Shown: positions 8 through 63,539 of the stretch, one piece after another
Layout of the letters: every line of letters starts with the position of its first letter
Position numbering within the stretch: the stretch's first letter is position 1
From: Eledone cirrhosa
Lineage: Eukaryota
Length of the DNA: 64,000 nucleotides
NCBI GenBank assembly: GCA_964016885.1
Contig: OZ024741.1
Span: forward strand, 378,572,001-378,636,000
Direction of reading: 5' to 3'
Translations under genes and position numbers: made by a program
The notes under the pieces: model-generated
Told to the model about the DNA's origin: nothing
What the model saw: only the letters and a program-made list of their open reading frames with translations
Database searches by the model: none

Positions 8-57
<50 letters not shown>

Positions 58-345
58 CAAATAACGAAACGAAATTAAATTTCGTTTCGTTTGTAACTCA
101 CTTTTGTATGGCTGACGCTTAAACAATTAAGTTAAAAACGTACATCCACATATGTATACTGAAATACTAGTATGCATATGAATACACACACGCATACATA
201 TGTAGATGTACCGAGTTTTTCACTGGTCACTTTACTGTGAGTGTCCAGCTATTCTGTATGTAAACACACAGACAAACCGGTTTTTAGAGTCATACTGGTT
301 TTTGAGGAAACACCTTTCCTCTATTCTCCAGAAAGCCAAACAAGG

Positions 346-390
346 AATATTGAACTAGTTTCGTTGTTGTTACAACTCATCAGCAATATT
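346..390 (-). ncRNA. Minimal type I hammerhead ribozyme (family A, unit 1)
   Basis: The minus strand reads aatattg CTGATGA gttg-taacaa-caac GAAAC TA GTT caatatt: full core, 7-bp helix I, 4-bp helix II and palindromic ACTAGT helix III. Confidence 0.85.
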
Positions 391-810
391 TACTTATCTT
401 CCGCCTTTCTAGAGAATCGTAAAAGCACATATCGTTATATGCTTTTTCTATGAAAATTAGTAGTGGGCAGACTAATTTGCATAGAGCGTGAGTACGTACC
501 GGTTCAACGGAGACGATAAAAACAAATAACGAAACGAAATTAAATTTCGTTTCGTTTGTAACTCACTTTTGTATGACTGACGCTTAAACAATTAAGTTAA
601 AAATGTACATCCACATATGTATACTGAAATACTAGTATGCATATGAATACACACACGTATACATATGTAGATTTACCGAGTTTTTCACTGGTCACTTTAC
701 TGTGAGTGTCCAGCTATTCTGTATGTAAACACACAGACAAACCGGTTTTTAGAGTCATACTGGTTTTTGAGGAAACACCTTTCCTCTATTCTACAGAAAG
801 CCAAACAAGG

Positions 811-855
811 ATTATTGAACTAGTTTCGTTGTTGTTACAACTCATCAGCAATATT
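811..855 (-). ncRNA. Hammerhead ribozyme (family A, unit 2)
   Basis: Same motif as 346-390 with one distal helix I mismatch. Confidence 0.8.
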
Positions 856-1276
856 TACCTATCTTCCGGCCTTTCTAGAGAATCGTAAAAGCACATATCG
901 TTATATGCTTTTTCTATGAAAATTAGTAGTGGGCAGACTAATTTGCATAGAGCGTGAGTACGTACCGGTTCAACGGAGACGATAAAAACAAATAACGAAA
1001 CGAAATTAAATTTCGTTTCGTTTGTAACTCACTTTTGTATGACTGACGCTTAAACAATTAAGTTAAAAATGTACATCCATATATGTATACTGAAATACTA
1101 GTATGCATATGAATACACACACGTATACATATGTAGATGTACCGAGTTTTTCACTGGTCAATTTACTGTGAGTGTCCAGCTATTCTGTATGTAAACACAC
1201 AGACAAACCGGTTTTTAGAGTCATACTGGTTTTTGAGGAAACACCTTTCCTCTATTCTCCAGAAAGCCAAACAAGG

Positions 1277-1321
1277 AATATTGAACTACTTTCGTTGTTG
1301 TTACAACTCATCAGCAATATT
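1277..1321 (-). ncRNA. Hammerhead ribozyme (family A, unit 3; helix III substitution)
   Basis: Same motif, but GAAAGTAGTT replaces GAAACTAGTT. Confidence 0.65.
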
Positions 1322-1410
1322 TACCTATCTTCCGGCCTTTCTAGAGAATCGTAAAGCACATATCGATTTTTTATCATATCATATTCTCTAGAAAGGCCAG
1401 AAGATAGGTA

Positions 1411-7800: not shown

Positions 7801-7809
7801 AATTTCGAT

Positions 7810-10700: not shown

Positions 10701-10705
<5 letters not shown>

Positions 10706-37776: not shown

Positions 37777-37978
37777 CATATAAATATATATACACATATA
37801 TGTGTACATAGACACATACATACACATCAATATACACTCGTACAAAAATATACATACATGCAAAGAGAAAAGCGTGCTAGTTGTAGTTATGGCAAAAAGA
37901 AGATAAAGTAACATTGTAGTAGTGAAATGAGAGAAACTAGGATCTAGGATCAAATGATTGCAGCAGCTGAGAAGGAGT

Positions 37979-39073
37979 AAGATTAAATCCATAGCACGTA
38001 GTATATCCCTCCGAATATCCCGCCTATCCTCAAACCTAGAAATCTTTAACGAGCATGCTGACTATTATAATGCAGCATTAAGTAGGGCCGGTCATAAAGA
38101 TAAACTACAGTATATAGTGAATAAGGACAACATAAACAATCCTAGTAATTTCTACTCCAACCGCTCACATAATAGTAGGAATAGCTTGACTAGACATAGT
38201 GTTAGACATGTAACACCTAGAGTAAACGGCCAAAACACTAATAACGTAAACCCTAGAAACAATAGAAGAAATAGACAAAGAAAATACCTATGGTTCAACC
38301 CAATATTCAACTCCACTATAAAAACTAGACTGCCCTCTACATTCTTTAGACTAATAGATAAACACTTCCCTATCTCGCATAGATATCACAAAATACTCAA
38401 TAGATCTACTATAAAACTCTCTTTCTCAACAGCAGCTAACATAGAATCACACATACGTAAGATCAACCACAGAAATATCTCAAGTAAATCAATTGCACCT
38501 ATACATAAGCACAAACTCATCACAACATCACAACCACAAGCGCATACAAACGCGCAGCAGCAAAACCCCATGGGGCATATATCACAACCCACTTATAACA
38601 GGGTACTAAATAGGAATGTAAAAGCTGCACAAAATAGCGCCTTAAACTGCAACTGTCACCTCCCAGATAGGTGCCCATTGGCGAACAGATGTCTCGATTC
38701 GAGCCTGGTGTACATGTGCACTGTCATCTCGGGTAACTCCACCTGGAATTACATAGGATCCACCGCGGGTTCTTTTAAGAAAAGATGGTATGTGCACAGG
38801 CACTCAATGAAAAATCGAGCACTTATGGGTTCCACCACCCTCGCCAGAAAAATATGGGAATTGAAGGACAGCAACGCTAGCAACACTATCAACTGGTTGA
38901 AGTTGTCGGCTGCTAAAACCTATAGTACAGGGATGTCCTATTGTGGGCTGTGTGATCTTGAGCTATTGTATATCCTTAGAAATGTTAAAAGGCTACTGAA
39001 TAATAAGTTAGAAAGATCTATCTTCTGCAGACATAGAATAGCCACTAAATTCATAAGATTCAAACCTCCGTGA
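37979..39073 (+). CDS. Uninterrupted C-terminal part of PLE ORF (thumb, linker, GIY-YIG)
   Basis: SISLRISRLSSN, LWFNP, CNCHLPDRCPL, LVYMC..YIGST..FKKRW..H, CGLCDLE and CRH. There is no native start codon. Confidence 0.85.
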   Translation, partial: KIKSIARSISLRISRLSSNLEIFNEHADYYNAALSRAGHKDKLQYIVNKDNINNPSNFYSNRSHNSRNSLTRHSVRHVTPRVNGQNTNNVNPRNNRRNRQRKYLWFNPIFNSTIKTRLPSTFFRLIDKHFPISHRYHKILNRSTIKLSFSTAANIESHIRKINHRNISSKSIAPIHKHKLITTSQPQAHTNAQQQNPMGHISQPTYNRVLNRNVKAAQNSALNCNCHLPDRCPLANRCLDSSLVYMCTVISGNSTWNYIGSTAGSFKKRWYVHRHSMKNRALMGSTTLARKIWELKDSNASNTINWLKLSAAKTYSTGMSYCGLCDLELLYILRNVKRLLNNKLERSIFCRHRIATKFIRFKPP

Positions 39074-39403
39074 ATCGAACCAACATAACATAGCTTTAAA
39101 TTAGGATACCTACTACCCACAGAAATATATTCATTAAGTATACTATTTCCTTCACAAGTCTATACCACACAATTGTCTGTAAATACCTAATCTACCAACA
39201 ATCTTACTCCTTCTCAGCTGCTGCAATCATTTGATCCTAGATCCTAGTTTCTCTCATTTCACTACTACAATGTTACTTTACCTTCTTTTTGCCATAACTA
39301 CAATTAGCACGCTTTTCTCTTTGCATGTATGTATATTTTTGTACGAGTGTATATTGATGTGTATGTATGTGTCTATGTACACATATATGTGTATATATAT
39401 TTT

Positions 39404-39473
<70 letters not shown>

Positions 39474-39828
39474 TAGATATATGCGTATATTAATTCGTTA
39501 ACCTCTGTATTAACTCTACAACTGTTGAGCTTTGACAGTGGTCCCACTCATGTATACTGTTGAAGATGAAGAGAAAGACTGTAAAAACTAGCTTATCTTT
39601 ATAATTTAAAATTGATACACACTACGATACTCTTTGCCTTATTACAGCTGATTTTCACGCCGTAACATTAGATACATTATATACCCCCCACCTAAGTAAT
39701 GTCAGGGTCTCCTTAAATAGTTTATTGATAGCAGTGTTGTAATAATTGTTGTTGTTATTGTTCTAATTGAATGCCATAACTACTCCATATTTTCTTTTCT
39801 TTTCTTGCCTGTGTATTTTCTTCATTCT

Positions 39829-40567: not shown

Positions 40568-40614
<47 letters not shown>

Positions 40615-40652
40615 ATTAAATAAATGGAAAACTATATTTATAAAACCATATT

Positions 40653-40718
40653 TATTTCATTATATATATTTCGGGGATATCATATTAACAATATGCTATG
40701 CCTTCATCAGACAAAATA
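40653..40718 (-). ncRNA. Type I HHR in 3' pLTR
   Basis: The minus strand reads tattttgt CTGATGA aggcatagcatattgttaatatgatatcccc GAAA tatata TA atgaaata. Confidence 0.8.
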
Positions 40719-41077
40719 CAATATAAACAGTTTTATAGATAAATATATTCGACATACCGTAATAAACATCAACTTCATTTGAAGAGGTTTACGCTAGCAG
40801 TGAAAATACAGAGAGAAAGAAAGAGAGAAAGAAAAGAGGGAAAAAAGAAAGAAAGACAAAACGAAGAAAAGGAAGAAAAAGAAGAAAAAGAAAAAGAAGA
40901 AATGCATGGAACAAAATAGAGAGATGGAAAAATAGATAAAGCGAAGAGCTTCATGTAAAGAGACAGAAAGAGATATATATATATATAGAGAGAGAGAGGA
41001 AATAGAGATAGATAATATATATATATAGAAAATTAGGTAGTGGGAGGTCATTTTGAGTAAGTGTATCAATGATACAT

Positions 41078-41108
<31 letters not shown>

Positions 41109-42150
41109 GTTCAAGTATTAATGTAAGGGAGATATATAGAGAGATATAGAGAGATATAGAGAGAGAACAAATTTAAAAATAGCCAGACATATTCGAGGCG
41201 TAGAAAACCCTATGTTTTAATGTATTAGTATTTATAAAACTTACACTATATTGTAAATATCAGTATTCCTGAATGAAACAAGTATTCACAATGTGTGAAA
41301 ATTCATTATCTTATGTTTAGTTTTAAAAATTCATATGTTTATGTGACAGCTACAAACATCAATGTGAATCCAACTGATTCACTCTGCAAACTCTAGGTTA
41401 CCGGAAAACATTCTCAATGTGGTATAAAAATTTGAGCGTATTATTATTCTTGCGATTACTCTACAAGATTATCTATCAAGCAGAAATAGAGAGCAGAATT
41501 TCAATATACTAATCGAAAATATATATTATATTATAAACATAAAAATAAAAATATAGAATAGAAAACTAAAACTAAAAAAAAAAAAAAAAAAATATTACGA
41601 AAGAATATTACATAATAAAAATATTGCATATTAAAAATACTACGTATTAAAAAAAAAAAAAAAAAAAAATATTAAAAATAAATTAAAAATAAATTAAAAA
41701 TAAAATAAAAAAATATTATAGAATACTACAATACTAAAAGAATAAAAATAAATAAAAATAAAAATAAAAATAAAAATAAAAATAAACCACAAAAAACAAC
41801 CCTTCAAATTTAATTGACAATATACTGCCAAGTTCATTACAAGACAAAGCCAAAAATTATCTATCAAATCACATCTAGCAAAGAACATCGCAAAAAGATT
41901 ATGATGTCCAATTATGTCTACATATGTTCCTATATTTAATATAGAAGTTTATCTAGTGTAAGGTTAATTCAAAAAATTTGGAGCATCGGCTTTTAGGGTA
42001 GCTTAATTTTTCATGAGGAATGTTTAGATAAAAATAAAAATAAATAAAATAAAATAAACAATAAAAAGAGTAAAAAGAGGGAATGAAAGATTTAGGAATC
42101 AAAAAATGTATCGGCTAGTTCTCATATAAATATAAATCAAACTAAGTATA

Positions 42151-44364
42151 CTACATTTTAAATTTAAATTTATATTTAAACGTTGAGTTTAATCTATGTT
42201 TGCAACAACTGAATAAATTTGTCCGTAGGTTAAGGGAATTTTTAGATTTTAGTATAAAGAATATCTCCTCTGCGCAGAGGTCACATGTCTCAGAGGATGA
42301 ATTAAAAGGAATCCCTCTTGAGACTATATTCCAAGCCGTCGAATATCTAACGTTATCTAGCTTAAGTTGCCAGAGTACCCCTGATAGTGCCGTTGAAGAT
42401 TTTTTATTTGGATCTGTGAAAGAATTCTTGTGGTTATTATAGCGAAGTTTAAATTCCGTCGATGTGGAACCGACGTAGTTAAAAGAATTAGAGTCAGTAT
42501 TAACATTACAATTGTATACTATATTTTTAACTAAGCAGTTGTTATTTAACGGACATTTAGATCTATCTCTACAGTTACATTTGTTAACTTGTATATTATT
42601 TATGCTATTATCAGTAGGTTTTAAGTTCCTATTATTTATTCTATTAATATTTTGTGCTAAATTTTTGGTGGATGAGTAAGTTAATTTAATTGTATGCCTA
42701 TTGAAGATTGAGTGATACCTATGTGTTCTAGGGAAGCGATTATCAAGAGCTTTGAAAAATAATTTAGCGATGTGGGTTTTAATGTTTAGTGAGAAAGGGG
42801 GGGCAAACCAAATTATGTTCCTAGTTCTATTTCTTTTTTGTCCTTTGGAATTATTGTAATGCTTTCTATTATAGTTGTTAATGTTGTTGCCGTAATTAAA
42901 AAAGTTGTTACTTTGTTTAGTTTGTCTATCATTATCTATGTACATAATCTTATCAGCATACCCTGCCCTAGCTAGTGCATCATTATAGTACTGGGCCTTT
43001 TCGTCAAAAATCTTTCTATTCGACGAGATCCTAGAGATACGTTTTTGGACTGAGTTTACTATAGTGTTTTTGACAGATCTGGGGTGGTTAGAGTTAAAGT
43101 TGACATAGTTTAAGTTTTCATTCAACTTGTGAAAAGGATAGTGGAGACATGTGTTGAGATTTAATGTTATATCTAGGAAATTGACTATTCTATGGTTGTT
43201 CTCAATTTCTATTTTAAGGTTAAAGTAATTAAAACATTTTGTAATTTGTTTACATTTTCTATTTAGTTCAGGGTTATTATTATTAATAAGTAAAAGCATG
43301 TCATACCTATATAAACCTCCGGTAGTACCAGGTATTTTCCTATGTAGCGAATTGATTAAAAATAAGCCCACAAGGTCAGTTACCTGAGCTGAGTCGGAAG
43401 ATCCCATACTTATGTCAAAATTGCTATCTCTATCTGCTCTGGTCCATAATTTGTCATTAAATTCTATCAAAGTTTTCCTAGCCGATAATATAATATGCAT
43501 TTCTTTGCTAGTTAGGTCCGTATGTTTGAATGCGTAATTTAGTGCCTTATTTAGTAGACTAGGGGTAATAGAAGAATAATAGTTAGCTATATCAAGTTGA
43601 ATAAACCTATTATTATTGTCATATTTAATTTGCCTAAACCACTCAACAACCTCTCCAGTTCCCTTCCACAAGCTCAGGTTAGATACACAATCCAAGTTCT
43701 TAATTTGCTGTATCACCCTGTCAAGAATGTTTTTGCATAATTTGCCCAGGTCCGATTTTGAAGGTGCGATCAATCTAACTGGCAGGTCATTTTCAAAATT
43801 CCTCTTGTGGTCCTTCATATTGATCTTCGGTTTCCTGGGCACGAAAGGTTGGGTTCTGTTCTCAATTTCCAACTCATGCATTATACAAGATGCTTCAACA
43901 TTCATTTTCTCAAGTTCGGCCTTATCTGCTACCTTGTATTTTTTCCTCAGCTCTTTCAGTATGAGGCCATTATACATGTCTTTCCGCACTCCATAGAGGT
44001 TGTTGGTCTTGTCAGATTTCACCAAGATCTTCTCAGTTTTCTCTAAGCTCTCAATGTTATCCTTAATGCCTTTCAGATATTCCTGGCCTTTAAAGTTTCT
44101 CTTGAATTTGACCCCTTGTATGATAGAAATTATATCGTTTTCAAAGTCAGATAAAAGTTTGTTACGGGGTGGATTTCTTTTAGATTTGAAAACTTTGTTT
44201 AAGTCCGAGATATTTTCGTCTGCATTAGATTTATCAAAGTGGAATGAACGCCACCTGATTCTCCTTATAAAAGAGTCAGATTTATCTATTAGTTGTTTTA
44301 CAAAGTCTTTGTTTCTAGGTAGAGGTATGTCTTTTAGAGAGGAAGTAATCTTAAAGAATTCCAT
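42151..44364 (-). CDS. PLE polyprotein: reverse transcriptase + C-terminal GIY-YIG endonuclease (737 aa)
   Basis: VKSDKT, PVRLI, QLDIANYYSSI, FDISMGSSDSAQVTDLVG, LYRYD (normally YRDD), VNFLDITL, CNCRDRSKCPL, IVY..YVGST..FKLRYNNH, CDLC and CKH. Confidence 0.95.
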   Translation of the reverse strand: MEFFKITSSLKDIPLPRNKDFVKQLIDKSDSFIRRIRWRSFHFDKSNADENISDLNKVFKSKRNPPRNKLLSDFENDIISIIQGVKFKRNFKGQEYLKGIKDNIESLEKTEKILVKSDKTNNLYGVRKDMYNGLILKELRKKYKVADKAELEKMNVEASCIMHELEIENRTQPFVPRKPKINMKDHKRNFENDLPVRLIAPSKSDLGKLCKNILDRVIQQIKNLDCVSNLSLWKGTGEVVEWFRQIKYDNNNRFIQLDIANYYSSITPSLLNKALNYAFKHTDLTSKEMHIILSARKTLIEFNDKLWTRADRDSNFDISMGSSDSAQVTDLVGLFLINSLHRKIPGTTGGLYRYDMLLLINNNNPELNRKCKQITKCFNYFNLKIEIENNHRIVNFLDITLNLNTCLHYPFHKLNENLNYVNFNSNHPRSVKNTIVNSVQKRISRISSNRKIFDEKAQYYNDALARAGYADKIMYIDNDRQTKQSNNFFNYGNNINNYNRKHYNNSKGQKRNRTRNIIWFAPPFSLNIKTHIAKLFFKALDNRFPRTHRYHSIFNRHTIKLTYSSTKNLAQNINRINNRNLKPTDNSINNIQVNKCNCRDRSKCPLNNNCLVKNIVYNCNVNTDSNSFNYVGSTSTEFKLRYNNHKNSFTDPNKKSSTALSGVLWQLKLDNVRYSTAWNIVSRGIPFNSSSETCDLCAEEIFFILKSKNSLNLRTNLFSCCKHRLNSTFKYKFKFKM

Positions 44365-44543
44365 TTTTCAGTTATAATATAAAGCGCTCAACAGTATTGG
44401 AGCAAGATACATGTAAAGTTATATTTAAAATTGTTGGGTTACAACTAGTGAATATTTATAACTGATATAAAAGCACTCGACAAATATTTGGAGTATATTT
44501 ACAATATTAAATAAATGGAAAACTATATTTATAAAACCATATT

Positions 44544-44609
44544 TATTTCATTATATATATTTCGGGGATATCATATTAACAATATGCTATGCCTTCATCA
44601 GACAAAATA
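44544..44609 (-). ncRNA. Type I HHR in 5' pLTR, ~190 nt upstream of the ATG
   Basis: Identical to 40653-40718. Confidence 0.8.
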
Positions 44610-44967
44610 CAATATAAACAGTTTTATAGATAAATATATTCGACATACCGTAATAAACATCAACTTCATTTGAAGAGGTTTACGCTAGCAGTGAAAATAC
44701 AGAGAGAAAGAAAGAGAGAAAGAAAAGAGGGGAAAAAAGAAAGAAAGACAAAACGAAGAAAAGGAAGAAAAAGAAGAAAAAGAAAATGAAGAAATGCATG
44801 GAACAAAATAGAGAGATGGAAAAATAGATAAAGCGAAGAGCTTCATGTAAAGAGACAGAAAGAGATATATATATATATAGAGAGAGAGGAAATAGAGATA
44901 GATAATATATATATATAGAAAATTAGGTAGTGGGAGGTCATTTTGAGTAAGTGTATCAATGATACAT

Positions 44968-45006
<39 letters not shown>

Positions 45007-45929
45007 GCTCAAGTATTAATGTAAGGGAGATATATAGAGAGATATAGAGAGATATAGAGAGAGAACAAATTTAAAAATAGCCAGACATATTCGAGGCGTA
45101 GAAAACCCTATGTTTTAATGTATTAGTATTTATAAAACTTACACTATATTGTAAATATCAGTATTCCTGAATGAAACAAGTATTCACAATGTGTGAAAAT
45201 TCATTATCTTATGTTTAGTTTTAAAAATTCATATGTTTATGTGACAGCTACAAACATCAATGTGAATCCAACTGATTCACTCTGCAAACTCTAGGTTACC
45301 GGAAAACATTCTCAATGTGGTATAAAAATTTGAGCGTATTATTATTCTTGCGATTACTCTACAAGATTATCTATCAAGCAGAAATAGAGAGCAGAATTTC
45401 AATATACTAATCGAAAATATATATTATATTATAAACATAAAAATAAAAATATAGAATAGAAAACTAAAAAAAAAAAAAAAAAAAAAATATTACGAAAGAA
45501 TATTACATAATAAAAATATTGCATGTTAAAAATACTTGTGCTAAATTTTTGGTGGATGAGTAAGTTAATTTAATTGTATGCCTATTGAAGATTGAGTGAT
45601 ACCTATGTGTTCTAGGGAAGCGATTATCAAGAGCTTTGAAAAATAATTTAGCGATGTGGGTTTTAATGTTTAGTGAGAAAGGGGGGACACACCAAATTAT
45701 GTTCCTAGTTCTATTTCTTTTTTGTCCTTTGGAATTATTGTAATGCTTTCTATTATAGTTGTTAATGTTGTTATATAAAAGTATTTTATAACTATATTTA
45801 TAAAATACTTTTATAAATATAGTTTTCCATTTATTTAATATTGTAAATATACTCCAAATATTTGTCGAGTGCTTTTATATCAGTTATAAATATTTACTAG
45901 TTGTAACCCAACAATTTTAAATATAACTT

Positions 45930-45999
<70 letters not shown>

Positions 46000-46378
46000 T
46001 ACGTATACGTACATACATACATGTATACAGACGTACAGTAGTGTGTATATATATATACATACATGCACACATGCACACATGTACGTGTGGATTCACCGAA
46101 CATTTATTATAATGCTCGCTGTGTTTGTAAACAAACATCCCGATTTAAGCCGTACAGTGTCTAGCAACCACGTTGCTCATTTGTTCAACACGCCAAAGGA
46201 ACGCTGTACTATTTTCAAGCTTATTAGCTATCGTCAGCAACGTATACCTTCCTGCCAGATTGTTGAGCGTCTGAAAGTATATACTTTCCTTATGCATATT
46301 AATGGCTGAACAGCCTAATTTGCATATCGAGTGAGTTAATCGGCCGGGGTACCGAAATCGATAAAAGGAAAGAAAGGT

Positions 46379-46450
46379 GATGTGTTAGTGTAAATGGTAT
46401 CACAGTGGTCCGGATAACCAAAGATGTGGGTTCGTCTCCCATGTACGTCA
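46379..46450 (+). tRNA. tRNA-like pseudogene / SINE head
   Basis: 72 nt that fold as a cloverleaf: wobble-rich acceptor gatgtgt/gtacgtc, A-box tagtgtaaatgg, stem tggt/acca and T arm tggg-ttcgtct-ccca. A T-run follows shortly downstream. Confidence 0.55.
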
Positions 46451-46803
46451 ATACTCATCTTTTTCCATTTCTCCGAGGGTTCTTAACCCCACTAACAGGC
46501 TAAATAATTTTTTTAATTGCTTTAGCCAAAATTCGGCGATAGCTAACATTTCTAATAATATATATATATATATAAATACTACTGTACGTCTATATACATG
46601 CATGTATGTAATTATACATACTTATATTTAAGTAACAGCCGTACTAAGAGTGAGAAAGGAATTTACGTTTCATTTTTTCCGTTTATCGTTTTCGATACCC
46701 TGGCCAATTAACTCACCCGATAGGCAAATTAGGTAGCTCAGCCTTTAATATGCATAAGGAAAGTATACACTTTCAGATGTTCAACCATTTGGCAGGAAGA
46801 TAT

Positions 46804-46846
46804 ACGTTGCTGACGATAGCTAATCAGCTTGAAACTAGTACAGCGT
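46804..46846 (+). ncRNA. Minimal type I HHR (family B)
   Basis: acgttg CTGACGA tagct-aatc-agctt GAAAC TA GTA cagcgt. Confidence 0.85.
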
Positions 46847-47110
46847 TCCTTTGTCAGGGTTGAACAAATGAGCAACGTGGTTGCTAGACAATGTACGGCT
46901 TAAATCGGGATGTTTGTTTACAAACACAGCGAGCATTATAATAAATGTTCGGTGAATCTAAACGTACATATATATATGTGTACTTGTATATATATATATA
47001 TATTCATACTACTGTACGTCTGTATACATGTATGGATGTACGTATACATACTTATCTTTAAGTAACAGCTTTACTAGGAGTGAGAAATGAAATTTCGTTT
47101 CATTTATACC

Positions 47111-47172
<62 letters not shown>

Positions 47173-47447
47173 TATTTATGTAATTTTTTCGTGGATTTAC
47201 ACATATTGAAATCATTTGCCAAAATATGGGTTTTTTTTTCCATGTGAGTTACGCATGTGCTTTTAAAAAAGACTGTGTCATCCACGACACTGGCGCAGAA
47301 CAAAATACCTGTCAATAACGTGATATTCATCGTTCAATCGTTACACCAAAAGCTTATCGTTTGAAGCAGACAGTAGTATTGATTTAGGTGTCACAGAAAC
47401 CCTGTACTTGATGTTAACATCAATTCCAAGGGTCCAAGTTTGTTATG

Positions 47448-47479
<32 letters not shown>

Positions 47480-47682
47480 AGTATGTACTAGTACATACAA
47501 GTATGTATACAGACGTACACTTATATGCATATACATATACATACATGCACACGTATATATATGTACGTATGGATTCACCGAACATTTAATATAATGCTCG
47601 GTGTGTTTGTAAACAAACATCCCGTATCAAGCCGTAGTGTCTAGCAACTATCGTTGGGCGTTTGTTCAACACTGACAAAGGA

Positions 47683-47725
47683 ACGCTGTACTAGTTTCAA
47701 GCTTATTAGCTATCGTCAGCAACGT
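47683..47725 (-). ncRNA. Minimal type I HHR, first family B monomer (repeated in every unit)
   Basis: The minus strand reads acgttg CTGACGA tagct-aata-agctt GAAAC TA GTA cagcgt. The predicted cut is between 47689 and 47688. Confidence 0.85.
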
Positions 47726-47791
47726 ATACCTTCCTGCCAGATTGTTAAACGTATATACTTACCTTAAGCATATTAACGGCCGAGTAGCCCA

Positions 47792-47799
47792 ATTTGCAT
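47792..47799 (-). promoter_or_regulatory. Octamer ATGCAAAT, conserved in most family B units and in family A (475-482, 941-948)
   Basis: Exact ATTTGCAT at the homologous position in both families. Function is inferred only. Confidence 0.4.
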
Positions 47800-48784
47800 A
47801 TCGAGTGGGTTAATCGGCCGGGTGCACCGAAAAGGATAAACGCAAAATATGAAACTAAATTTCATTTCCCATTCTTAGTACGGCTGTTACTTAAATATAA
47901 GTATGTACACGTACATAATATATGTATACAGATGCACAGTAGTATGTATATATATATACATACATGCACACATATATATATACGTACGTATGGATTCACC
48001 GAACATTTAATATAATGCTCGGTGTGTTTGTACACAAACATCCCGTATCAAGCTGTAGTGTCTAGCAACCATCGTTGCTCGTTTGTTCAACACTGACAAA
48101 GGAACGATGTACTAGTTTCAAGCTTATTAGCTATCGTCAGCAACGTATAACTTCCTGCCAGATTGTTGAACGTATATATTTACCTTATGCATATTAACGA
48201 CTGAGTAGCCCAATTTGCATATCGAGTGGGTTAATCGGCCGGGTGCACCGAAAACGATAAACAGAAAAAATGAAACGAAATTACATTTCCCAATCTTAGT
48301 ACGGCTAGTACTTAAATATAAGTATGTAGACGTACATACATATATGTATACAGACGTACAGTCTTATCATAAATATAAATATACATTCACACATATATAT
48401 ATGTGTACGTATGGATTCACCGAACATTATTATAATGCTCGGTATGTTTATAAACAAACATCCCGTATCAAGCCGTAGTGTCTAGCAACAACCGTTGCTC
48501 GTTTGTTCAACACTGACAAAGGAACGCTGTACTAGTTTCAAGCTTATTAGCTATCGTCAGCAACGTATACCTTTCTGCCAGATTGTTGAACGTATATACT
48601 TACTTTATGCATATTAAAGACTGAGTAGCCCAATTTGCATGTCGAGTGGGTTAATCGGCCGGGTGCACCGTAAACGATAAACGGAAAAAATGAAGCGAAA
48701 TTTCATTTCCCACTCTTAGTACGGCTGTTACCTAAATATAAATATGTACACGTACATACATATATGTATACAGACGTACAGTAG

Positions 48785-48821
<37 letters not shown>

Positions 48822-51800
48822 GGACACATATTTATATGTACGTATGGATTCACCGAACAGTTATTATAATGCTCGGTGTGTTTTTAAACAAACATCCCGT
48901 ATCAAGTCGTAGTGTCTAGCAACCATCGTTGCTCGTTTGTTCAACAATGACAAAGGAAGGCTGTATAAGTTTCAAGCTTATTAGCTATCGTATGCAACAT
49001 ACACCTTCCTGTCATATTGTTGAACGTATATACTTATCTTATGCATATTAAAGGCTGAGTAGCCCAATTTTCATATCGAGTGGGTTAATCGGCCAGATTG
49101 TTGAACATATATACTTATCTTATGCATATTAACGGCTGAGTAGCCCAATTTTCATATCGAGTGGGTTAATCGGCCGGGTGGACCGAAAACGTTTATGGAA
49201 AAAATGAAACGAAATTTCATTTCGCAGTCTTAGTACGGCTGTTAGTTAAATATAAGTATGTACACGTACATACATATATGTATACAGACGTACAGTCTTA
49301 TGTATATATATATATACATGCACACATATATATATGTATACGTATGGATTCACCGAACATTTATTATAATGCTCAGTGTGTTTGTAAACAAACATACCGT
49401 ATCAAGCCGTAGTGTCTAGCAACCATCGTTGCTCTTTTGTTCAACACTGGCAAAGGAACGCTGTACTAGTTTCAAGCTTATTAGCTATCGTCAGCAACGT
49501 ATATATTCCTGCCAGATTGTTGAACGTATATACTTACCTTATGCATATTAACGGCTGAGTAGCCCAATTTCCATATCGAGAGGGTTAATCGGCCGGGTGA
49601 AACGAAAACGATAAACTGAAAAAATGAAACGAAATTACATTTCCCACTCTTAGTACGGCCGTTACTTAAATATAGGTATATACACGTACACAATATATGT
49701 ATACAGACGTACAGTAGTATGTATATATATATATACATACATGGACATATATATATATATATGTACGTATGGATTCACCGAACATTTATTATAATGCTCG
49801 TTTTTTTTTGTAAACAAACATCCTGTATCAAGCCGTAGTGTCTAACAACCATCGTTGCTCGTTTGTTCAAGACAGACAAAGGAACGCTCTACTAGTTTTA
49901 ATCTTATTAGCTATCGTCAGCAACGTATACCTTCCTGCCAGATTGTTGAACGTATATATTTACCTTATGCATATTAACGGCTGAGTAGCCCAATTTGCAT
50001 ATCGATTGGGTTAATCGGCCGGGTGCACCGAAAACGTTTATGGAAAAAATGAAACGAAATTTCATTTCGCAGTCTTAGTACGGCTGTTAGTTAAATATAA
50101 GTATGTACACGTACATACATATATGTATACAGACGTACAGTAATAAGTATATATATATACATACATACACACATATATATAACTACGTATGGATTCACAG
50201 AACATTTATTATAATGCTCGGTGCGTTTGTAAACAAACATCCCATATCAAGCCGTAGTGTCTAGCAACCATCGTTGCTCGTTTGTTCAACACTGAAAAAG
50301 GAACGCTGTACTAGTTTCAATTAGCTATCGTCAGCGACGTAAACCTTCCTGTCAGATTGTTGAACATATATACTTACCTTATGCATATTAACGGCTGAGT
50401 AGCCCAATTTGCATATCGAGTGGGTTAATCGGCGTGGTGCACAGAAAACGATAAACATAAAAAATGAAACGAAATTACATTTCCCGCTCTTAGTACGGGT
50501 GTTACTTACATATAATTATGTACACGTACATACATATATGTATACAGACGTACAGTAATAAGTATATATATACATACATGCACACATATATATATATATG
50601 TACGTATGGATTCACCGAACATTATTATAATGCTCAGTTTTTTGTAAACAAACATCATGTATCAAGCCGTAGTGTCTGACAACCACCGTTGCTCGTTTGT
50701 TCAAAACTGACAAAGGAACGCTGTACTAGTTTTAAGCTTATTAGCTATCGTCAGCAACGTATACCTTCCTGCCAGATTGTTGAAAGTATATACTTTCCTT
50801 ATGCATATTAACAGCTCAGCACTCTTATTTGCATATCGAGTGGGTTAATCGGCCGGGTGCACCGAAAACGATAAACGGAAAAAATGAAACGAAATTACAT
50901 TTCCCACTCTTATTACGGCTGTTAGTTAACTATAAGTATGTACACGTACATAGATATATGTATACAAACGTACAGTAATAAGTATATATATATACATACA
51001 TGCACACATATATATATGTACGTATGGATTCCCCGAACATTTATTATAATGCTCGTTGTGTTTGTAAACAAACATCCCGTATCAAGCTGTAGTGTCTAGC
51101 AATCATCGTTGCTCTTTTGTTCAACACTGACAAAGGAACGCTGTACTAGTTTCAATCTTATGAGCTATCGCCTGCAACGTTTACCTTCCTGTCAGATTGT
51201 TGAACGTATATACTTACCTTATGCATATTAACGGCTGAGTAGCCCAATTTGCATATCCAGTGGGTTAATCGGCCGGGTGCACCGAAAACGATAAACGGAA
51301 AAAATGAAACGAAAATTAATTTCCCATTCTTAGTACGGCTGTTACTTAAATATAAGTATGTACACGTACATAATATATGTATACAGACGTACAGTATTAT
51401 GAATATATATGTACATTCATGCACACATATATATATATATATATATGTACGTATGGATTCACCGATCATTTATTATAATACTCGGTGTGTTTGTAAACAA
51501 ACATCCCGTATCAAGCCGTAGTGTCTAGCAACCATCGTTGCTCGTTCGTTCAACACTGACAAAGGAAAGCTGTACTAGTTTCAAGCTTATAAGCTCTCGT
51601 CAGCAACTTATACCTTCTTGCCAGTTTGTTGAACGTATATACTTACCTTATGCATATTAACGGCTGAGTAGCCCAATTTGCATATCGAGTGGGTTAATCG
51701 GCTGGGTGCACCGAAAACGATATACGGAAAGAATGAAACGAAATTTCATTTCCCACTCTTAGTACGGCTGTTACTTAAATATAAGTATGTACAAGTACAT

Positions 51801-54800
51801 ACATATATGTATGCAAACGGACATTAATAAGTATATATATATATATATATATACATACATGCACACATATATATATATATTTTCGTATGGATTCACCGAA
51901 AATGTATTATAATGCTCGGTGTGTTTATAAACAAACACCCCGTATCAATCCGTAGTGTCTAGCGACCATAGTTACTCGTTTGTTCAACACTGACAAAGGA
52001 ACGCTGTACAAGTTTAAAGCTTAGTAGCTATCGTCAGCAACGTATACCTTCTTGCAAGATTGTTGAACGTATATACTTACCTTATGCATATTAACGGCTG
52101 AGTAACCCAATTTGCATATCGAGTGGGTTAATCGGCCGGGTGCACCGAAAGCGATATACGGAAAAAATGAAACGAAATTACATTTCCCACTCTTATTACG
52201 GCTGTTACTTAAATATAAGGATGTACACGTACATAGATATATATATACAGACGTACAGTAATAAGTATATATATATATATATACATACATGCACACATAT
52301 ATATATGTACGTATAGATTCACCGAACATTTATTATAATGCTAGGTGTGTTTGTAAACAAACATCCCGTATCAAGCCGTAGTGTCTAGCAATCATCCTTG
52401 CTCGTGTGTTCAACACTGACAAAGGAACGCTGCACAAGTTTCAATCTTATGAGCTATCGTCAGCAACGTATACCTTCCTACCAGATTGTTGAACGTATAT
52501 ACTTACATTATACATATTAACGGCTGAGTAACCCAATTTGCATATCGAGTGGGTTAATCGGCCGGGTGCACCGAAAGCGATATACGGAAAAAATGAAACG
52601 AAATTACATTTCCCACTCTTAGTACGTCTGTTACTTAAATATAAGTATGTACACGTACATACATATATGTATACAGACGTACAGTCTTATGTATATATAT
52701 ATACATGCACACACATATATATGTATACGTATGGATTCACCGAACATTTATTATAATGTTCAGTGTGTTTGCAAACAAACATCCCGTATCAACCCGTAGT
52801 GTCTAGCAACCATCGTTGCTCCTTTGTTCAACACTGACAAAGGAACGCTGTACAAGTTTCAAGCTTATTAGATATCGTCAGCAACGTATATCTTCCTGCT
52901 AGATTGTTGAACGTATATACTTACCTTATGCATATTAACGGCTGAGTAAACCAATTTGCATATCGAGTGGGTTAATCGGCCGGGTGCGCCGAAAACGATA
53001 TACGAAAAAAATGAAACGAAATTACATTTCCCTCTCTTATTACGGCTGTTACATAAATATAAGGATGTACGCGTACATAGATATATGTATACAGACGTAC
53101 AGTAATAAGTATATATATATATATATACATACATGCACACATATATATACGTACGTATAGATTCACCGAACATTTATTATAATACTAGGTGTGTTTGTAA
53201 ACAAACATCCTGTATCAAGCCGTAGTGTCTAGCAATCATCCTTGCTCGTGTGTTCAACATTGACAAAGTAACGCTGTACTAGTTTCAATCTTATGAGCTA
53301 TCGTCAGCAACGTATACCTTCCTGCCAGATTGTTGAACGAATATACTTACCTTTTGCATATTAACGGCTGAGTAGCCCAAGTTGCATATCGAGTGGGTTA
53401 ATCGGTCGGGTGCACCGAAAACGATAAAAGGAGAAAATAAAACGAAATTACATTTCCCTCTCTTAGTACGTCTGTTACTTAAATATAAGTATGTACACGT
53501 ACATACATATATGTATACAGATGTACAGTCTTATGTATATATATCTATATATATACGTGCACACATATATATATGTTTACGTATGGATTCACCGAACATT
53601 TTTTATAATGCTCGGTGCGTTTGTAAACAGACATCCCATATCAAGCCGTATTGTCTAGCAACCATCGTTGCTCGTTTGTTCAACACAGACAAAGGGACGC
53701 TGTACTAGTTTCAAGCTTATTAGCTATTGTCAGCAACTTATACCTTCCTACCAGATAGTTGAACGTATATACTTACCTTATGCATATTAACGGCTGAGTA
53801 GCTCAATTTGCATATCGAGTGGGTTAATCGGCCGGGTGCACCGAAAACGATAAACGGAAAAAATGAAACAAAATTACATTTCCGAGTCTTAGTACGGCTG
53901 TTACTTAAATATATGTATGTACACGTACATAGATATATGTATACAGACGTACAGTAATAATTATATATATATACATACATGCACACATATATATATGTAC
54001 GTATGGATTCACGGAACATTTATTATTGTGCTCGGTGTGTTTGTAAACAAACATCCCGTATCAAGCCGTAGTGTCTAGCAATCTTCGCTGCTCGTTTGTT
54101 CAACACTGACAAAGGAACGCTGTACTAGTTTCAATCTTATGAGCTATCTTCAGCAACGTATACCTTCCAGCCAGATTGTTGAACGTATATACTTACCTTA
54201 TGCATATTAACGGCTGAGTAACCCAATTTGCATATCGAGTGGGTTAATCGGCCGGGTGCACCGAAAACGATAAACGGAAAAAATGAAACAAAATTACATT
54301 TCCGACTCTTAGTACGGCTGTTACTTAAATATATGTATGTACACGTACATAGATATATGTATACAGACGTACAGTAATAAGTATATATACATACATACAT
54401 GCACACATATATATATGTACGTATGGATTCACCGAACATTTATTATAATGCTCGGTGTGTTTGTAAACAAACATCCCGTATCAAGCTGTAGTGTCTAGCA
54501 ATCATCGTTGCTCGTTTGTTCAACACTGACAAAGTAACGCTGTACTAGTTTCAATCTTATGAGCTATCGTCAACAACGTATACCTTCCTGCCAGATTGTT
54601 GAACGTATATACTTACCTTTTGCATATTAACGGCTGAGTAGCCCAATCTGCATATCAAGTAGGTTAATCGGCCGGGTGCACCGAAAACGATAAACGGAAA
54701 AAATGAAACGAAATAAAATTTCCCAATCTTAGTACGGCTGTTACTTAAATAGAAGTATGTACACGTACATACATATATGTATTCAGACGTACAGTCTTAT

Positions 54801-56509
54801 GTATATATATATATACATGCACACATATATATATGTATACGTATGGATTCACCGAACATTTATTATAATGCTCAGTGTGTTTGTAAACAAACATACCGTA
54901 TCAAGCCGTAGTGTCTAGCAACCATCGTTGCTCTTTTGTTCAAAACTGACAATGGAACGCTGTACTAGTTTCAAGCTTATTAGCTATCGTTAGCAACGTA
55001 TAGCTTCCTGCCAGATTGTTGAACGTATATACTTAGCTTATGCATATTAACGGCTGAGTAGCCCAATTTGCATATCGATTGGGTTAATCGGCCGGGTGAA
55101 ACGAAAACGATAAACTGAAAAAATGAAACAAAATTACATTTCCCACGCTTAGTACGGCTGTTACTTAAATATATGTATGTACACGTACATAGATATATGT
55201 ATACAAACGTGCAGTAATAAGTATATATATATACATACATGCACACATATATATATATGTACGTATAGATTCACCGAACATTTATTATAATGCTCGGTGT
55301 GTTTTTAAACAAACATCCCGTATCAAGCCGTAGTGTCTAGCAATCATCGTTGTTCGTGTGTTCAACAGTGACAAAGGAACGCTGTACTAGTTTCAATCTT
55401 ATGAGCTATCGTCAGCAACGTATACCTTCCTGCCAGATTGTTGAACGAATATACTTACCTTTTGCATATTAACGGCTGAGTAGCCCAATTTGCATATCGA
55501 GTGGGTTAATCGGCCGGGTGCACCGAAAACGATAAACGGAAAAAATGAAACGAAATTTAAGTTCCCACTCTTAGTACGGCTGTTACTTAAATATAAGTAT
55601 ATACACGTATAAAATATATGTATACAGGCGTACAGTAGTATGTATATATATATACATACATGCACACATATATATATGTACGTATGGATTCACCGGACAT
55701 TTATTATAATGCTCGGTTTGTTTGTAAACAAACATCATGTATCAAGCCGTAGTGTCTAGCAATCATCGTTGCTCGTTTGTTCAACACTGACAAAGGAACA
55801 ATGTACTAGTTTCCAGCTTATTAGCTATCGTCACCAACGTATACCTTCCTGCCAGATTGTTGAACGTATATATTTACCTTATGCATATTAACGACTGAGT
55901 AGCCCGGTTTGCATATGGAGTGGGTTAATCGGCCGGGTGCACCGAAAACGGTAAACGGAAAAAATGAAATGTAGTTTCATTTCCCAATCTTAGTATGGCT
56001 TTTACTTAAATATAAGTATGTACACGTACATACATATATGTATACAGACGTACAGGAATATGTATATATATATACATACATGCACACATATATATATATG
56101 TACGTATGGATTCACCGAACATTTATTATAGTGCTCTGTTTTTTTGTAAACAAACATCCTGTATCAAGCCGTAGTGTCTAGCAACCGTCGTTGCTCGTTT
56201 GTTCAACACTGACAAAGGAACTTTGTACTAGTTGCAAGCTTATTAGCTATCGTCTGCAACGTATACCTTCCTGCCAGATTGTTGAACGTATATATTTACC
56301 TTATGCATATTAACGACTGAGTAGCCCGATTTGCATATCGAGTTGGTTAATCGGCCGGGTTCACCGAAAACGGTAAACGGAAAAAATGAAACATACTACT
56401 GTACGTACTACTGTACATCTGAATACATATATGTATGTACGTGTACATACTTATATTTAAGTAACAGCCGTACTAAGAGTGGGAAATGAAATTTCGTTTC
56501 ATTTTTTCC

Positions 56510-56552
<43 letters not shown>

Positions 56553-56579
56553 TAGATATATAGATAGATATATGAATAT

Positions 56580-58163: not shown

Positions 58164-59545
58164 TCATCATCATCATCACCGTTTTACGTCCGTTCTTCCA
58201 CGCTAGCATGGGTTAGACGGGTTGTCCTGTTGTGGGCAGTGTCTGGTCGGCTGACCATGCCTTGCTCATACAGGAACTGATCTGGCTTGATTTCTACAGC
58301 TGGATGCCCTTCCTAACACCAACCTCATTTACAGTGAGTGCTGGGTGCTTTTTCGTGGCGCCTACACGTCCACTTTACAGTGTGGGCTGGGTGCTTTTTT
58401 GCCGTGGCACCTCCACGACCACCTTGCGGTGGGGGGGGGGGGCATATTGTTTATATGCTTCAGCATGTACCCATGGGAGGTCGGGTACCCTGTATTACTG
58501 CGTGACGCCAGAAGTCACGGTCGTGTGTCATTGACTTTGAGAGGTGTAGTTGGGTAAGGTCGGCTTTTATCACCTCATCCCAAGTCATCTTGGGTCTCCC
58601 CACTCCGCGGTTTCCATCAACTTCTAGTGCTCTGCACCTTTTTATGCAGCTGTCATCCTTCATACGCATCACATGTCCATACCAGCGTAACCGCCTCTCC
58701 TGCACGCAGCATTTGATTCCTCTTATGCTCAGTCTCTCTCTCAATTCATTTATGCTTTGTCGTTCACGTATATTACTGTTACACATCCATCGGAGCATGC
58801 AGGCTTCGTTTCTCTCTAATCTACGTAAGTCTTCCACCTTCAGCGCCCAGGTCTCACTACCATGCAACATCGCTGTTCGGATACACGCATCATACAGTCT
58901 GCCTTTCATTCTGAGGGAGAAGCCTTTTGCAGCTAGCAGTGGTAGTAGTTCCCTAAACTTCTTCCATCCCGTTCTTACCCTAGTTATTGTACTTTCTGAG
59001 CACCCACCTCCGTTGCTAATTCGGTCACCTAGGTAGCAGAAGCTGTCTACTGTTTCTACAGGGCCCTCCCAGAGATTGGTGGTACTTGTTTCCTGTGGCT
59101 GTTTGCTTGCTGTTTCAGCACAGCTGCTGCATGTGAATCCTACATTCTTAATTAAGCTTCCTGAGATCCCGCTACATCTCTTGTGTACCCATTGTTTGCA
59201 TTTGGGGCAAAGAATGGAGTTCCTACCTACACCTTTCCTACATACTGAGCAAGGCCATTTCCCTGAGGGGATCTGGGTTCTGTTTTCTCGTCTACTTATA
59301 AGGACCTTAGTCTTTGTCATGTTGACTTTGAGGCCCTTTCTCTCTAGTCCCTGCTTCCAGGTTTGGAATTTATTCTCTAGTTCTACCATAGATTCAGCTA
59401 TGAGTGCGAGGTCATCAGCATACAGGAGTTCCCATGGGCATCCGGTCTTAAACTCCTCCGTTATTGCCTGCAGGGCTATGATGAACAGGAGAGGGCTAAG
59501 AACAGAGCCCTGGTGGACCCCAACCTGTACGCTAAATTCCTCATG
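58164..59545 (-). mobile_element. 5'-truncated RTE-clade LINE with uninterrupted C-terminal ORF (58460-~59545)
   Basis: GVHQGSVLSPLLF, LLYADDL, Cys-rich CSVC..CPKC..H..C insert, FCYLGD, LRWYGHVMR and GRPKMTW. A (GAT)n tail lies at 58165-58178. Confidence 0.93.
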
Positions 59546-59732
59546 CAAATAATTGCATAGATAGCACAAATCGAATAAGCACTGAACCGGGTAGTTTTAA
59601 AAATAAGCTTATGCAATTAATCTGTCAATAGAATTATTAACAGGTTAATTGTAATACTCGGGAGATTAATACAAATATACATTCAGCGAGATTCGTATTT
59701 CGGCTGGTAGAAAAAGCGAAACGATAAAAGCA

Positions 59733-60069: not shown

Positions 60070-61080
60070 ATCTTATTATATTATTGAGGGAATGTTTGTC
60101 TAAAAGTTCAAGGAATTTTCTGCCTATATTAGTTTTAATTGTTAGATAGAAAGGTGGAGTAAATCTTACTATTTTTATTTTCCTATCAGTGTATTTAGTG
60201 GTAGTTGGAAGTGTAGGTATATATCAGGTTTGTTCGTTCAAATTGCTATTTTGCAGGGCCTTATTATAATAAGGGGCTGCTTTATTAAAACTTTCTACAG
60301 GAGAAGATAAGGTGGAGATCCTACGACTATTATTAGGAATAAGGTTTCTAAATACTATAGGAGGATGGCAAGACTCTTTTTGTATATATTTTAAATTTTC
60401 GTTAGGTTTATGGTTGGGTTTGAAAGAAGCAGTAAGTAGGTCAAGATTGATATCGAGGACGTTAGTATTAGTTAGGTTAGTATCCATAGTAATTTTAAGG
60501 TTTACGTTAAAAAAGATTTTAATTAAATCTTTACGGAATTTGTGAAGGTTATGGCTGTTGGTGGTATGAGACACTGCCAATCCTTCGTCTCGGTATAAGC
60601 CGGTAGTATGGGTGGGACATTTCTCTTTAAGGATGTGGTGGAGGAATAATCCAACTCAATCGCACGCGTGGGCACTGTTAAATGAACCCATAGAGAGAGC
60701 AAAACGGTTATCTGGGTTTTTTAACCCAACTTTCTTCTTTACCGAAAAGTAGTGTTTTCCTAGCGTGTAAGATAACATCTTCCTCTAAATTAGATGTATC
60801 AATACATTTTCTAGCGAATTCTAAAGCTTTAGCTAATAAGCATTGAGTAATAGAGGGGTAGAAATATACTATATCGAATTGGGTAAATCTACACACATTT
60901 TTCTCTTTTCTGTTGTATATAATTAAACCAAGATATAACAGAGGAAGTGTTTAACCGTTGGAATAATTCTGTTTTAGTTCTTATTTGAAGGATTATATTT
61001 CTAAGGATTTTTTTACTACCAAGACAGATTTATGATTTAGCAGGGTTGATTAGTCTACAACTGGGTCGATTAAATAGTTC
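60070..61080 (-). pseudogene. Degraded Nematis-like PLE RT fragment
   Basis: QFDIVYFYPSI, ARKTLLF, LYRDEGL, VLDINLDL and ISTLSS. Confidence 0.88.
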
Positions 61081-62301: not shown

Positions 62302-63432
<1,131 letters not shown>

Positions 63433-63539
63433 AACGGCTCTGTAGTATACTAGTTATCCTACATTGAGCTAAAACAACACTGTCATACCAAGGGTAATAT
63501 ATCTACATGTCTAGGAATACTGATATAATTGTCAACGAA

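What the first reader, a model, noticed from the sequence alone, without database searches (positions are those of the whole stretch)
45996..56514. All three retrozyme-like insertions use the same pair of (TA)n junction sites, one at each end
Seen, read on the HHR-sense strand: site 1 is ..ccgtttat|(AT)n in B (47115, 56514) and the homologous ..tgtttttat|(AT)n in A (53). Site 2 is ..tacttata|(TA)n in B (45996, 47476) and ..acttaattgttta|(TA)n in A (1680), a few nt from the homologous position. Each insertion has two outward-facing 3' ends, one at site 1 and one at site 2. Neither site is the ribozyme cut, which lies roughly 230-290 nt upstream. Inference: reverse transcription is primed from nicked (TA)n DNA at two preferred internal UA-rich positions, one for each target strand. 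Internal priming that yields more than one unit is most simply explained by a circular (rolling-circle) or multimeric template. This rests on only three insertions.
Basis: partly seen in the sequence, partly recalled or inferred. Interest (0 to 1): 0.8.

Follow-up and report, generated by a model that had tools for sequence, protein, structure and literature searches.

The report
Retrozymes carry Penelope twin start sites
Two abundant non-coding repeats with a predicted self-cutting RNA motif end at the same two fixed internal points thousands of times in this genome, and back-to-back insertions almost always use one point at each end, the known footprint of Penelope-type jumping genes, which likely copy one small RNA, probably a circle, from both sides of a cut in TA-repeat DNA.

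Summary
Confirmed and genome-wide. Families A (465 nt) and B (420 nt) are type I hammerhead non-LTR retrozymes. Exact (TA)n junction counts for B: site 1 3,101, site 2 1,487, a better-matching internal TATATA 6, the ribozyme cut 3. For A: site 1 1,596, control 0. Back-to-back insertions with both ends at either site pair site 1 with site 2 in 54 of 55 (B) and 14 of 14 (A). An intact Hydra-clade Penelope-like element (PLE) in the window does so in 13 of 13.

The stretch between the sites (61-68 nt) is the published PLE 'tail'; two internal reverse-transcription starts were shown in vitro for an anole PLE (PMC11167929).

Added here: both arms of an insertion descend from one template, most read through the hammerhead cut, and they keep no unit-register memory. 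This favours twin-primed copying of a monomeric circle over a heterogeneous multimer.

Limits: only about half of insertions show two arms; one of the three window examples is interrupted by another repeat; no RNA data; the autonomous partner was not found. This scan noted the same pattern earlier for other retrozyme families in this genome.

The parts
54..1365 (-). Family A insertion, long arm (2.8 units of 465-466 nt); outward 3' end at site 1 (m299) into (TA)n at 1-53, a run that extends about 3.7 kb beyond the window
   Evidence: L147
1383..1679 (+). Family A insertion, inverted short arm (m401 to m231); outward 3' end at site 2 into (TA)n from 1680
353..383 (-). Type I hammerhead core of A (further copies 818-848 minus, 1418-1448 plus); stem III minimal; cleavage not tested
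   Evidence: motif scan; Rfam gave no hammerhead hit
45998..46374 (-). Family B insertion 1, left arm (m260 to m209); 3' end at site 2 into (TA)n 45936-45997
46375..46558 (+). Fragment of a different ~272-nt tandem repeat (family D, tRNA-Ser-like domain 46378-46451), ending at its own short site into (TA)16
46559..47113 (+). Family B insertion 1, right arm, beginning in the unit's internal TA tract; 3' end at site 1 (m270) into (TA)n 47114-47170; hammerhead core 46810-46840
47480..56392 (-). Family B insertion 2, long arm of about 21 units of 420 nt; 3' end at site 2 (m209) into (TA)n 47444-47479; units star-like, mean pairwise divergence 9%
56393..56512 (+). Family B insertion 2, inverted short arm (m161-270); 3' end at site 1 into (TA)n 56513-56573
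56452..56512 (+). The 61-nt 'tail' of B (m210-270) between the two sites, present at this end only; predicted stem-loops (z -2.6 for B, -2.9 for the 68-nt tail of A)
40614..45935 (-). Neighbouring intact Hydra-clade PLE (ORF 42151-44367, 737 aa from Met; pLTRs with hammerhead core); main arm ends at its short site (~40614), inverted 5' arm at its long site (~45935), tail about 87-90 nt. Same architecture; not shown to be the partner of A or B

Best explanation
A and B are protein-free hammerhead repeats whose insertions end at two fixed internal sites flanking a Penelope-type tail, likely because a borrowed Penelope-like RT-endonuclease nicks both strands of a (TA)n target and starts one cDNA at each site of a single, probably circular, RNA. 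Shown: fixed sites, 1+2 pairing, a shared template for both arms, read-through of the hammerhead cut, and the same geometry in an intact Hydra-clade PLE. Inferred, step by step: (1) a tandem transcript is cut by dimeric hammerheads and ligated into a monomer circle; (2) the PLE protein binds the structured tail and sets two start points 61-68 nt apart; (3) each nicked TA end anneals through 2-5 nt of UA and primes; (4) both RTs run round the template, the site-1 RT displacing or stalling at the site-2 complex; (5) the two cDNA 3' ends join by microhomology, giving head-to-head arms with the tail on one end only. If the second cDNA is very short or absent, a one-armed copy results.
For: Sites. 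Pairing: of 65 B insertions with TA at both ends, 57 were 1+2 (54 after removing 3 duplicates), one 2+2, none 1+1, and 7 had one end elsewhere; A 14 of 14; Hydra PLE 13 of 13. Same template: arm-to-arm divergence 284/8358 (3.4%) against 5.8% between insertions for 38 B insertions, and 18/3574 (0.5%) against 2.9% for 12 A insertions; a subfamily indel agreed between arms in 27 of 29. Continuous template: 44 of 49 site-1 arms reaching m12 read through the cut, and 32 of 93 exceed one unit. No register memory: same-lap, shifted and adjacent-unit divergences were 3.1/2.1/2.7% (B, 24 insertions) and 0.57/0.48/0.46% (A, 7), and odd-one-out triplets 51 v 58 and 8 v 5. Site-1 arms stop about twice as often inside the tail (5.0 v 2.3 per kb, p=4e-4, one of five windows, post hoc). 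Published: a PLE protein nicks and extends both strands and starts RT at two internal sites bounding the tail, with a predicted dimer (PMC11167929).
Against: No RNA evidence for a circle or for cleavage. About half of site-1 ends show no second arm. Two of 29 insertions have arms from different subfamilies, and there is one 2+2 case, one possible 1+1 without TA (L099) and one possible 4-nt site-1 stub (L031). Rare alleles shared by only some units exist (13 B, 1 A), and the window's long array has variants patchily shared by 6-7 of 20 units, so later gene conversion can also homogenise units. In vitro, hammerhead cleavage was dispensable and unprocessed RNA was the main substrate for the anole PLE (PMC11167929). 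No PLE with a pLTR homologous to A or B was found. Tail folding is not significant for the Hydra PLE or family C.
Confidence: 0.62

Rival explanations
1. Same two-site PLE priming, but on an uncut linear multimeric transcript of a young homogeneous array, not a circle.
For: Unprocessed RNA was the dominant substrate in vitro (PMC11167929). Young arrays with near-identical units exist (L133: 2/2206 differences between adjacent units). One rare allele is shared by both arms in the same lap only.
Against: No excess of same-lap agreement. Rare alleles fixed across all passes of an insertion (7 B, 4 A) need a one-unit bottleneck. Minimal-stem-III hammerheads are expected to cut in multimers and not in monomer circles (PMC4209133).
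Confidence: 0.2
2. Dual priming: two separate RNA molecules from the same source locus, one per nick, held by an asymmetric protein dimer that forces one start at each site.
For: 2 of 29 arm pairs disagree in subfamily. Overlapping copying of one RNA needs strand displacement, which was not shown. Arm lengths are uncorrelated (Spearman -0.20, p=0.10).
Against: With thousands of loci, arms match each other far better than other insertions. Strict 1+2 use and extra stops of site-1 arms inside the tail fit two starts on one molecule more simply.
Confidence: 0.12
3. One priming event followed by fold-back or self-priming of the cDNA makes the inverted arm; long arrays grow later by unequal crossing-over.
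For: Self-priming was proposed for PLE inverted repeats (PMC3846280). Patchy shared variants in the window's array show some DNA-level exchange.
Against: The site-2 arm reaches further 5' than the site-1 arm in 38 of 69 B and 5 of 14 A insertions, so it cannot be a copy of that cDNA, and inner breakpoints are asymmetric. The 20-unit array is flat with lag and has no pair under 5% at lags 1-10.
Confidence: 0.04
4. The ends are TA microsatellite expansions or breaks seeded at TA-like spots in the unit, or assembly artefacts.
For: The unit has an internal TA tract that does expand. Site 2 of B is TATAT-like, and its reversed control has 150 hits.
Against: Site 1 has only TAT yet 3,101 ends, against 6 at a TATATA. 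Expansion cannot give inversion or 1+2 pairing. An unrelated intact PLE shows the same rule.
Confidence: 0.02

Closest known systems
Poseidon PLE of Anolis carolinensis (Frangieh et al. 2024, PMC11167929; main text read; supplement text search empty; figures not seen)
   Same: Two adjacent internal RT start sites bounding the genomic 'tail'; ends not at the hammerhead cut; AT-rich target; both strands nicked and extended.
   Different: There the element is autonomous, the sites lie inside the ORF, the tail is described as 30-40 bp, and in the text I read the coupling of the two sites within one event was not reported. Here the elements are non-coding, tails are 61-68 nt, and opposite ends use opposite sites.
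EN+ PLE insertion architecture and the Hydra clade (Craig et al. 2021, PMC8557442; passages and Hydra section; also PMC3846280 passages)
   Same: Partial tandems, inverted 5'-truncated copy, tail often at one end only, (TA)n targeting, hammerheads in pLTRs. The window's ORF has the Hydra marks (RWR for RWK, DKT, CxCX5C linker, no CCHH, CxxC and CxH).
   Different: A and B encode no protein and form multi-unit arrays. Tails here are longer (61-110 nt, except about 36 nt in family D).
Metazoan non-LTR retrozymes (Cervera and de la Pena 2020, PMC7229834, passages and Discussion; Li et al. 2026, 10.64898/2026.07.22.740005, parts 1-3 of 5; PMC4209133 passages)
   Same: Non-coding tandem units of a few hundred nt, each with a type I hammerhead; proposed circle template and PLE mobilisation.
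   Different: In the parts I read, the PLE link rests on co-occurrence and pLTR homology, and insertion ends are not mapped. Here junction geometry supplies mechanistic evidence.
L1 twin priming and dual priming (PMC2837659, passages)
   Same: Both target nicks prime cDNA, giving an inverted two-piece insertion.
   Different: L1 starts at the poly(A) end plus a variable internal site and gives non-overlapping pieces with an internal deletion. Here both starts are fixed, 61-68 nt apart, and the arms overlap for hundreds to thousands of nt.

Membership tests
Non-LTR retrozyme | Tandem non-coding units of a few hundred nt, dispersed in many loci | tested here: met
   420- and 465-nt periods; 8,795 and 5,055 exact hammerhead-core matches; no ORF of 120 aa or more inside the arrays apart from one low-complexity frame
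Non-LTR retrozyme | Type I hammerhead in each unit | tested here: met
   CUGANGA, GAAA and NUH with stems I and II in both families, with different pairing sequences. Rfam did not detect it and the single-strand fold does not isolate it, so this is a motif-level call
Non-LTR retrozyme | Self-cleavage and expression as circular RNA | not testable with these tools
   No RNA run was listed; needs a cleavage assay and RNase R/RT-PCR
PLE-mobilised element | Tail between two fixed 3' ends, not at the hammerhead cut | tested here: met
PLE-mobilised element | Inverted 5'-truncated copy with tail at one end only | tested here: met
   54 of 55 (B), 14 of 14 (A)
PLE-mobilised element | (TA)n target preference, as in Hydra/Naiad PLEs | tested here: met
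   All six window ends and most sampled 3' ends abut (TA)n
PLE-mobilised element | Homology to the pLTR of an autonomous PLE partner | tested here: inconclusive
   No similarity to the window's Hydra pLTR; 35 fetched loci had PLE-protein hits but none with A or B placed as a pLTR after an ORF end. No whole-genome search was possible
Autonomous PLE (for A and B) | RT plus GIY-YIG ORF | tested here: not met
   No such ORF in the units; they work like PLE ends but are not autonomous PLEs
Hydra-clade PLE (window 42151-44367) | RWK-like, DKT, CxCX5C linker, C-terminal GIY-YIG without CCHH, CxxC/CxH, hammerhead, (TA)n target | tested here: met
   Motifs read from the translation against the published list; hammerhead core in pLTR. 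No tree was built; Pfam gave no hit
L1-type twin priming | Non-overlapping inverted pieces with internal deletion, poly(A) start | tested here: not met
   Arms overlap and there is no poly(A)

The most novel reading that the evidence does not exclude
Penelope-like elements integrate by obligatory twin-primed rolling-circle reverse transcription: one protein dimer clamps the tail of a single ribozyme-made RNA circle, with its two RT sites at the two tail boundaries. That one step would explain the tail, the inverted 5' copy, the partial tandems and retrozyme arrays.
Probability: 0.4. Interest if true: 0.78.

Novelty: new member of a known kind. Interest (0 to 1): 0.5.

Why it matters
How Penelope-like elements make their tandem and inverted insertions is stated as open in PMC8557442 and PMC11167929, and the circle-templated spread of animal retrozymes is a hypothesis (PMC7229834). 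These junctions give a quantitative rule: opposite ends use opposite sites, on one template, with read-through of the cut. Any model must meet that rule, and the existing in vitro PLE assay can test it directly. It also ties retrozymes to PLE enzymes by mechanism, not only by co-occurrence. The two-site tail itself is already published, which caps the surprise. Six paper searches returned no paper reporting the pairing statistic or the shared-template result, but the library lacks most subscription journals and Repbase notes.

Tried and rejected

Rfam found no hammerhead in the window or in a B dimer; its hits were microsatellite-driven miRNA noise. Pfam did not recognise the PLE ORFs.

The first B sample (30 loci) was biased to site 1 by the query boundary. 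It was left out of the histogram and pairing counts; 21 of its loci were offered to the arm-divergence tests only.

The first segmentation was too permissive and was redone. The nine-unit B reference carried two window-specific alleles (m402, m408); this does not affect end positions or arm-to-arm comparisons.

A pile-up of 5' ends at the hammerhead cut, as a linear monomer template would give, was not significant (6 stops, p=0.12). The junction-fidelity figure (no deletion at m420/m1 in 133 passes) is partly ascertained by the anchor and is not leaned on.

The search for the autonomous partner in fetched loci was negative. Target-site duplications cannot be read in (TA)n. Fold-back and microsatellite-artefact readings were rejected (see rivals). 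No structure or complex prediction was run, because the PLE protein here is not shown to be the partner.
Full report
What is in the window. The window lies in a 3.0-Gb animal genome (G000:C2:378572001-378636000). It holds two related tandem repeats: A (465-466 nt; 54-1679) and B (420 nt; 45998-47113 and 47480-56512). They are 66% alike over about 200 nt. Each unit has a type I hammerhead core with a minimal stem III; Rfam does not score it. Positions below count from the predicted cut on the hammerhead-sense strand.

Observation. Segmentation against circular monomers gives three head-to-head insertions with outward 3' ends at A m299/m231, B m209/m270 and B m209/m270. B insertion 1 is interrupted by a fragment of a different tRNA-like repeat. 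Its two B arms share two alleles seen in none of 64-66 other insertions, so it is one B event disturbed at the centre.

Is it more than chance? Exact genome-wide counts give 8,795 B and 5,055 A hammerhead cores. B site 1 + (TA)n occurs 3,101 times and B site 2 + (TA)n 1,487 times, with a reversed control of 150. An internal TATATA with longer microhomology gives 6, and the hammerhead cut 3. A site 1 gives 1,596 and an A internal control 0. For an unbiased histogram I took hammerhead matches in order along contig C1. In 57 B loci, 37 of 86 TA-abutting ends fell at m204-218, 40 at m264-273 and 9 elsewhere. In 30 A loci, 16 of 39 fell at m225-231 and 23 at m297-303. These counts include a few segmental duplicates and neighbouring insertions.

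Pairing. Across hammerhead-, site-1- and site-2-anchored B samples (117 loci), 65 inverted insertions had TA at both ends: 57 were 1+2, one 2+2, none 1+1, and 7 had one end elsewhere. Removing three duplicates gives 54 of 55 against 0.5 expected, p=1.6e-15. For A, 11 of 11 single-locus cases, two long arrays read from separate end stretches and the window's insertion were all 1+2. Site 1 is on the chromosomal left in 16 of 34, so the asymmetry is per event. Two-armedness is common but not universal. Of 96 site-1 junctions recovered from the first 100 listed (95 after one duplicate), 41 were scored with a site-2 arm, 9 with a 3-14 nt site-2 stub, 4 with another inverted end and 1 with a possible 4-nt site-1 stub; 19 joined to TA, 20 to other DNA, and 1 was censored. 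At least three of the last groups are site-2 arms misfiled by the automatic walk.

The same rule in an autonomous element. The window also holds an intact 737-aa ORF (42151-44367, minus) with the motifs listed for Hydra-clade PLEs, with hammerhead-bearing pLTRs. The search scored 61 copies, all at 96-100% identity. It has its own two TA junction sites about 87-90 nt apart. Of 30 loci, 13 (including the window) had an inverted arm with both ends readable, and all 13 paired long with short. A further hammerhead element at 62430-63539 and family D show the same two-ended form.

Template. The two arms of one insertion are much closer to each other than to other insertions: B 3.4% v 5.8% (38 insertions), A 0.5% v 2.9% (12). 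A subfamily indel agrees in 27 of 29. The arms are not nested, since the site-2 arm reaches further 5' in 38 of 69 B cases, which excludes fold-back of the first cDNA. Of 93 site-1 arms (3 rows dropped), 32 exceed one unit, and 44 of the 49 that reach m12 continue through the cut; stops at the cut are not significantly enriched. Same-lap, shifted and adjacent-unit divergences are alike and triplets show no register memory (51 v 58; 8 v 5). A monomer circle predicts this; a heterogeneous multimer does not. Against over-reading: partial sharing of rare alleles exists (13 B, 1 A, against 7 and 4 fixed and 206 and 18 singletons), 12 of the 14 within one arm. The window's old 20-unit array, though star-like, has patchy shared variants, so gene conversion acts too. 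Site-1 arms stop about twice as often within the tail (post hoc), which fits an obstacle at site 2.

Mechanism. Most likely a PLE RT-endonuclease acting in trans binds the structured tail (z -2.6 and -2.9) and nicks both strands of (TA)n. It primes one cDNA at each tail boundary through a few UA bases, copies round one RNA, and joins the two cDNA ends. The ends, pairing, shared template and read-through are shown. The protein, the dimer, priming, cleavage and circularity are inferred.

Comparison with what is known. Frangieh et al. 2024 (PMC11167929) showed in vitro that a PLE protein cuts and extends both strands and initiates at two internal sites that bound the tail, without needing hammerhead cleavage. 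Craig et al. 2021 (PMC8557442) describe the inverted 5' copy, a 30-40 bp tail often at one end only, and (TA)n targeting. Cervera and de la Pena (PMC4209133; PMC7229834) proposed circle templates and PLE mobilisation. Li et al. 2026 link animal retrozymes to PLE pLTRs. So the two sites are a known PLE signature, seen here in new retrozyme families. The near-strict coupling, the shared template and the register test are additions that I did not find in six searches. After forming this reading I saw that the scan had noted the same pattern for other retrozyme families in this genome; those notes are not independent support.

Verdict. Real, well supported and mechanistically useful, but largely an instance of a described system. 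Novelty: new member of a known kind. Interest 0.5.

Noticed in passing
window 46375-46558; L311-L315: Family D: a ~272-nt tandem repeat with a tRNA-Ser(GGA)-like domain and no CUGANGA core seen in the unit. It targets (TA)n, forms tandem and inverted copies, and has two ends about 36 nt apart (L312 pairs them). Possibly a PLE-mobilised tRNA-derived element that would need another route to a circle.
   Followed up: partly
window 40614-45935: Intact, high-copy Hydra-clade PLE; 61 copies scored at 96-100% protein identity, some in tandem with a 4,011-nt period. A candidate for biochemistry.
   Followed up: yes
window 62430-63539: Third hammerhead-bearing head-to-head element between (TA)n runs, with one arm about 110 nt longer than the other.
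   Followed up: partly
window 10703-12476, 7801-9873, 37958-39600, 27312-28340, 60224-60655: Further PLE-like ORF fragments, several beside (TA)n; the one at 10703 has a hammerhead core at 10805-10834.
   Followed up: no
L152, L154, L155: Three of the six rare ends at B m351 are inverted insertions whose other end is site 1, as if m351 can stand in for site 2.
   Followed up: partly
L270, L296, L306: Three identical 27-nt site-1 stubs preceded by the same 3-nt site-2 stub: a recurrent minimal insertion or a short related family.
   Followed up: no
window 58460-59596 and 32209-33027: LINE-type RT fragment with a PHD-finger match and a Helitron-like Rep fragment (recalled resemblance only).
   Followed up: no
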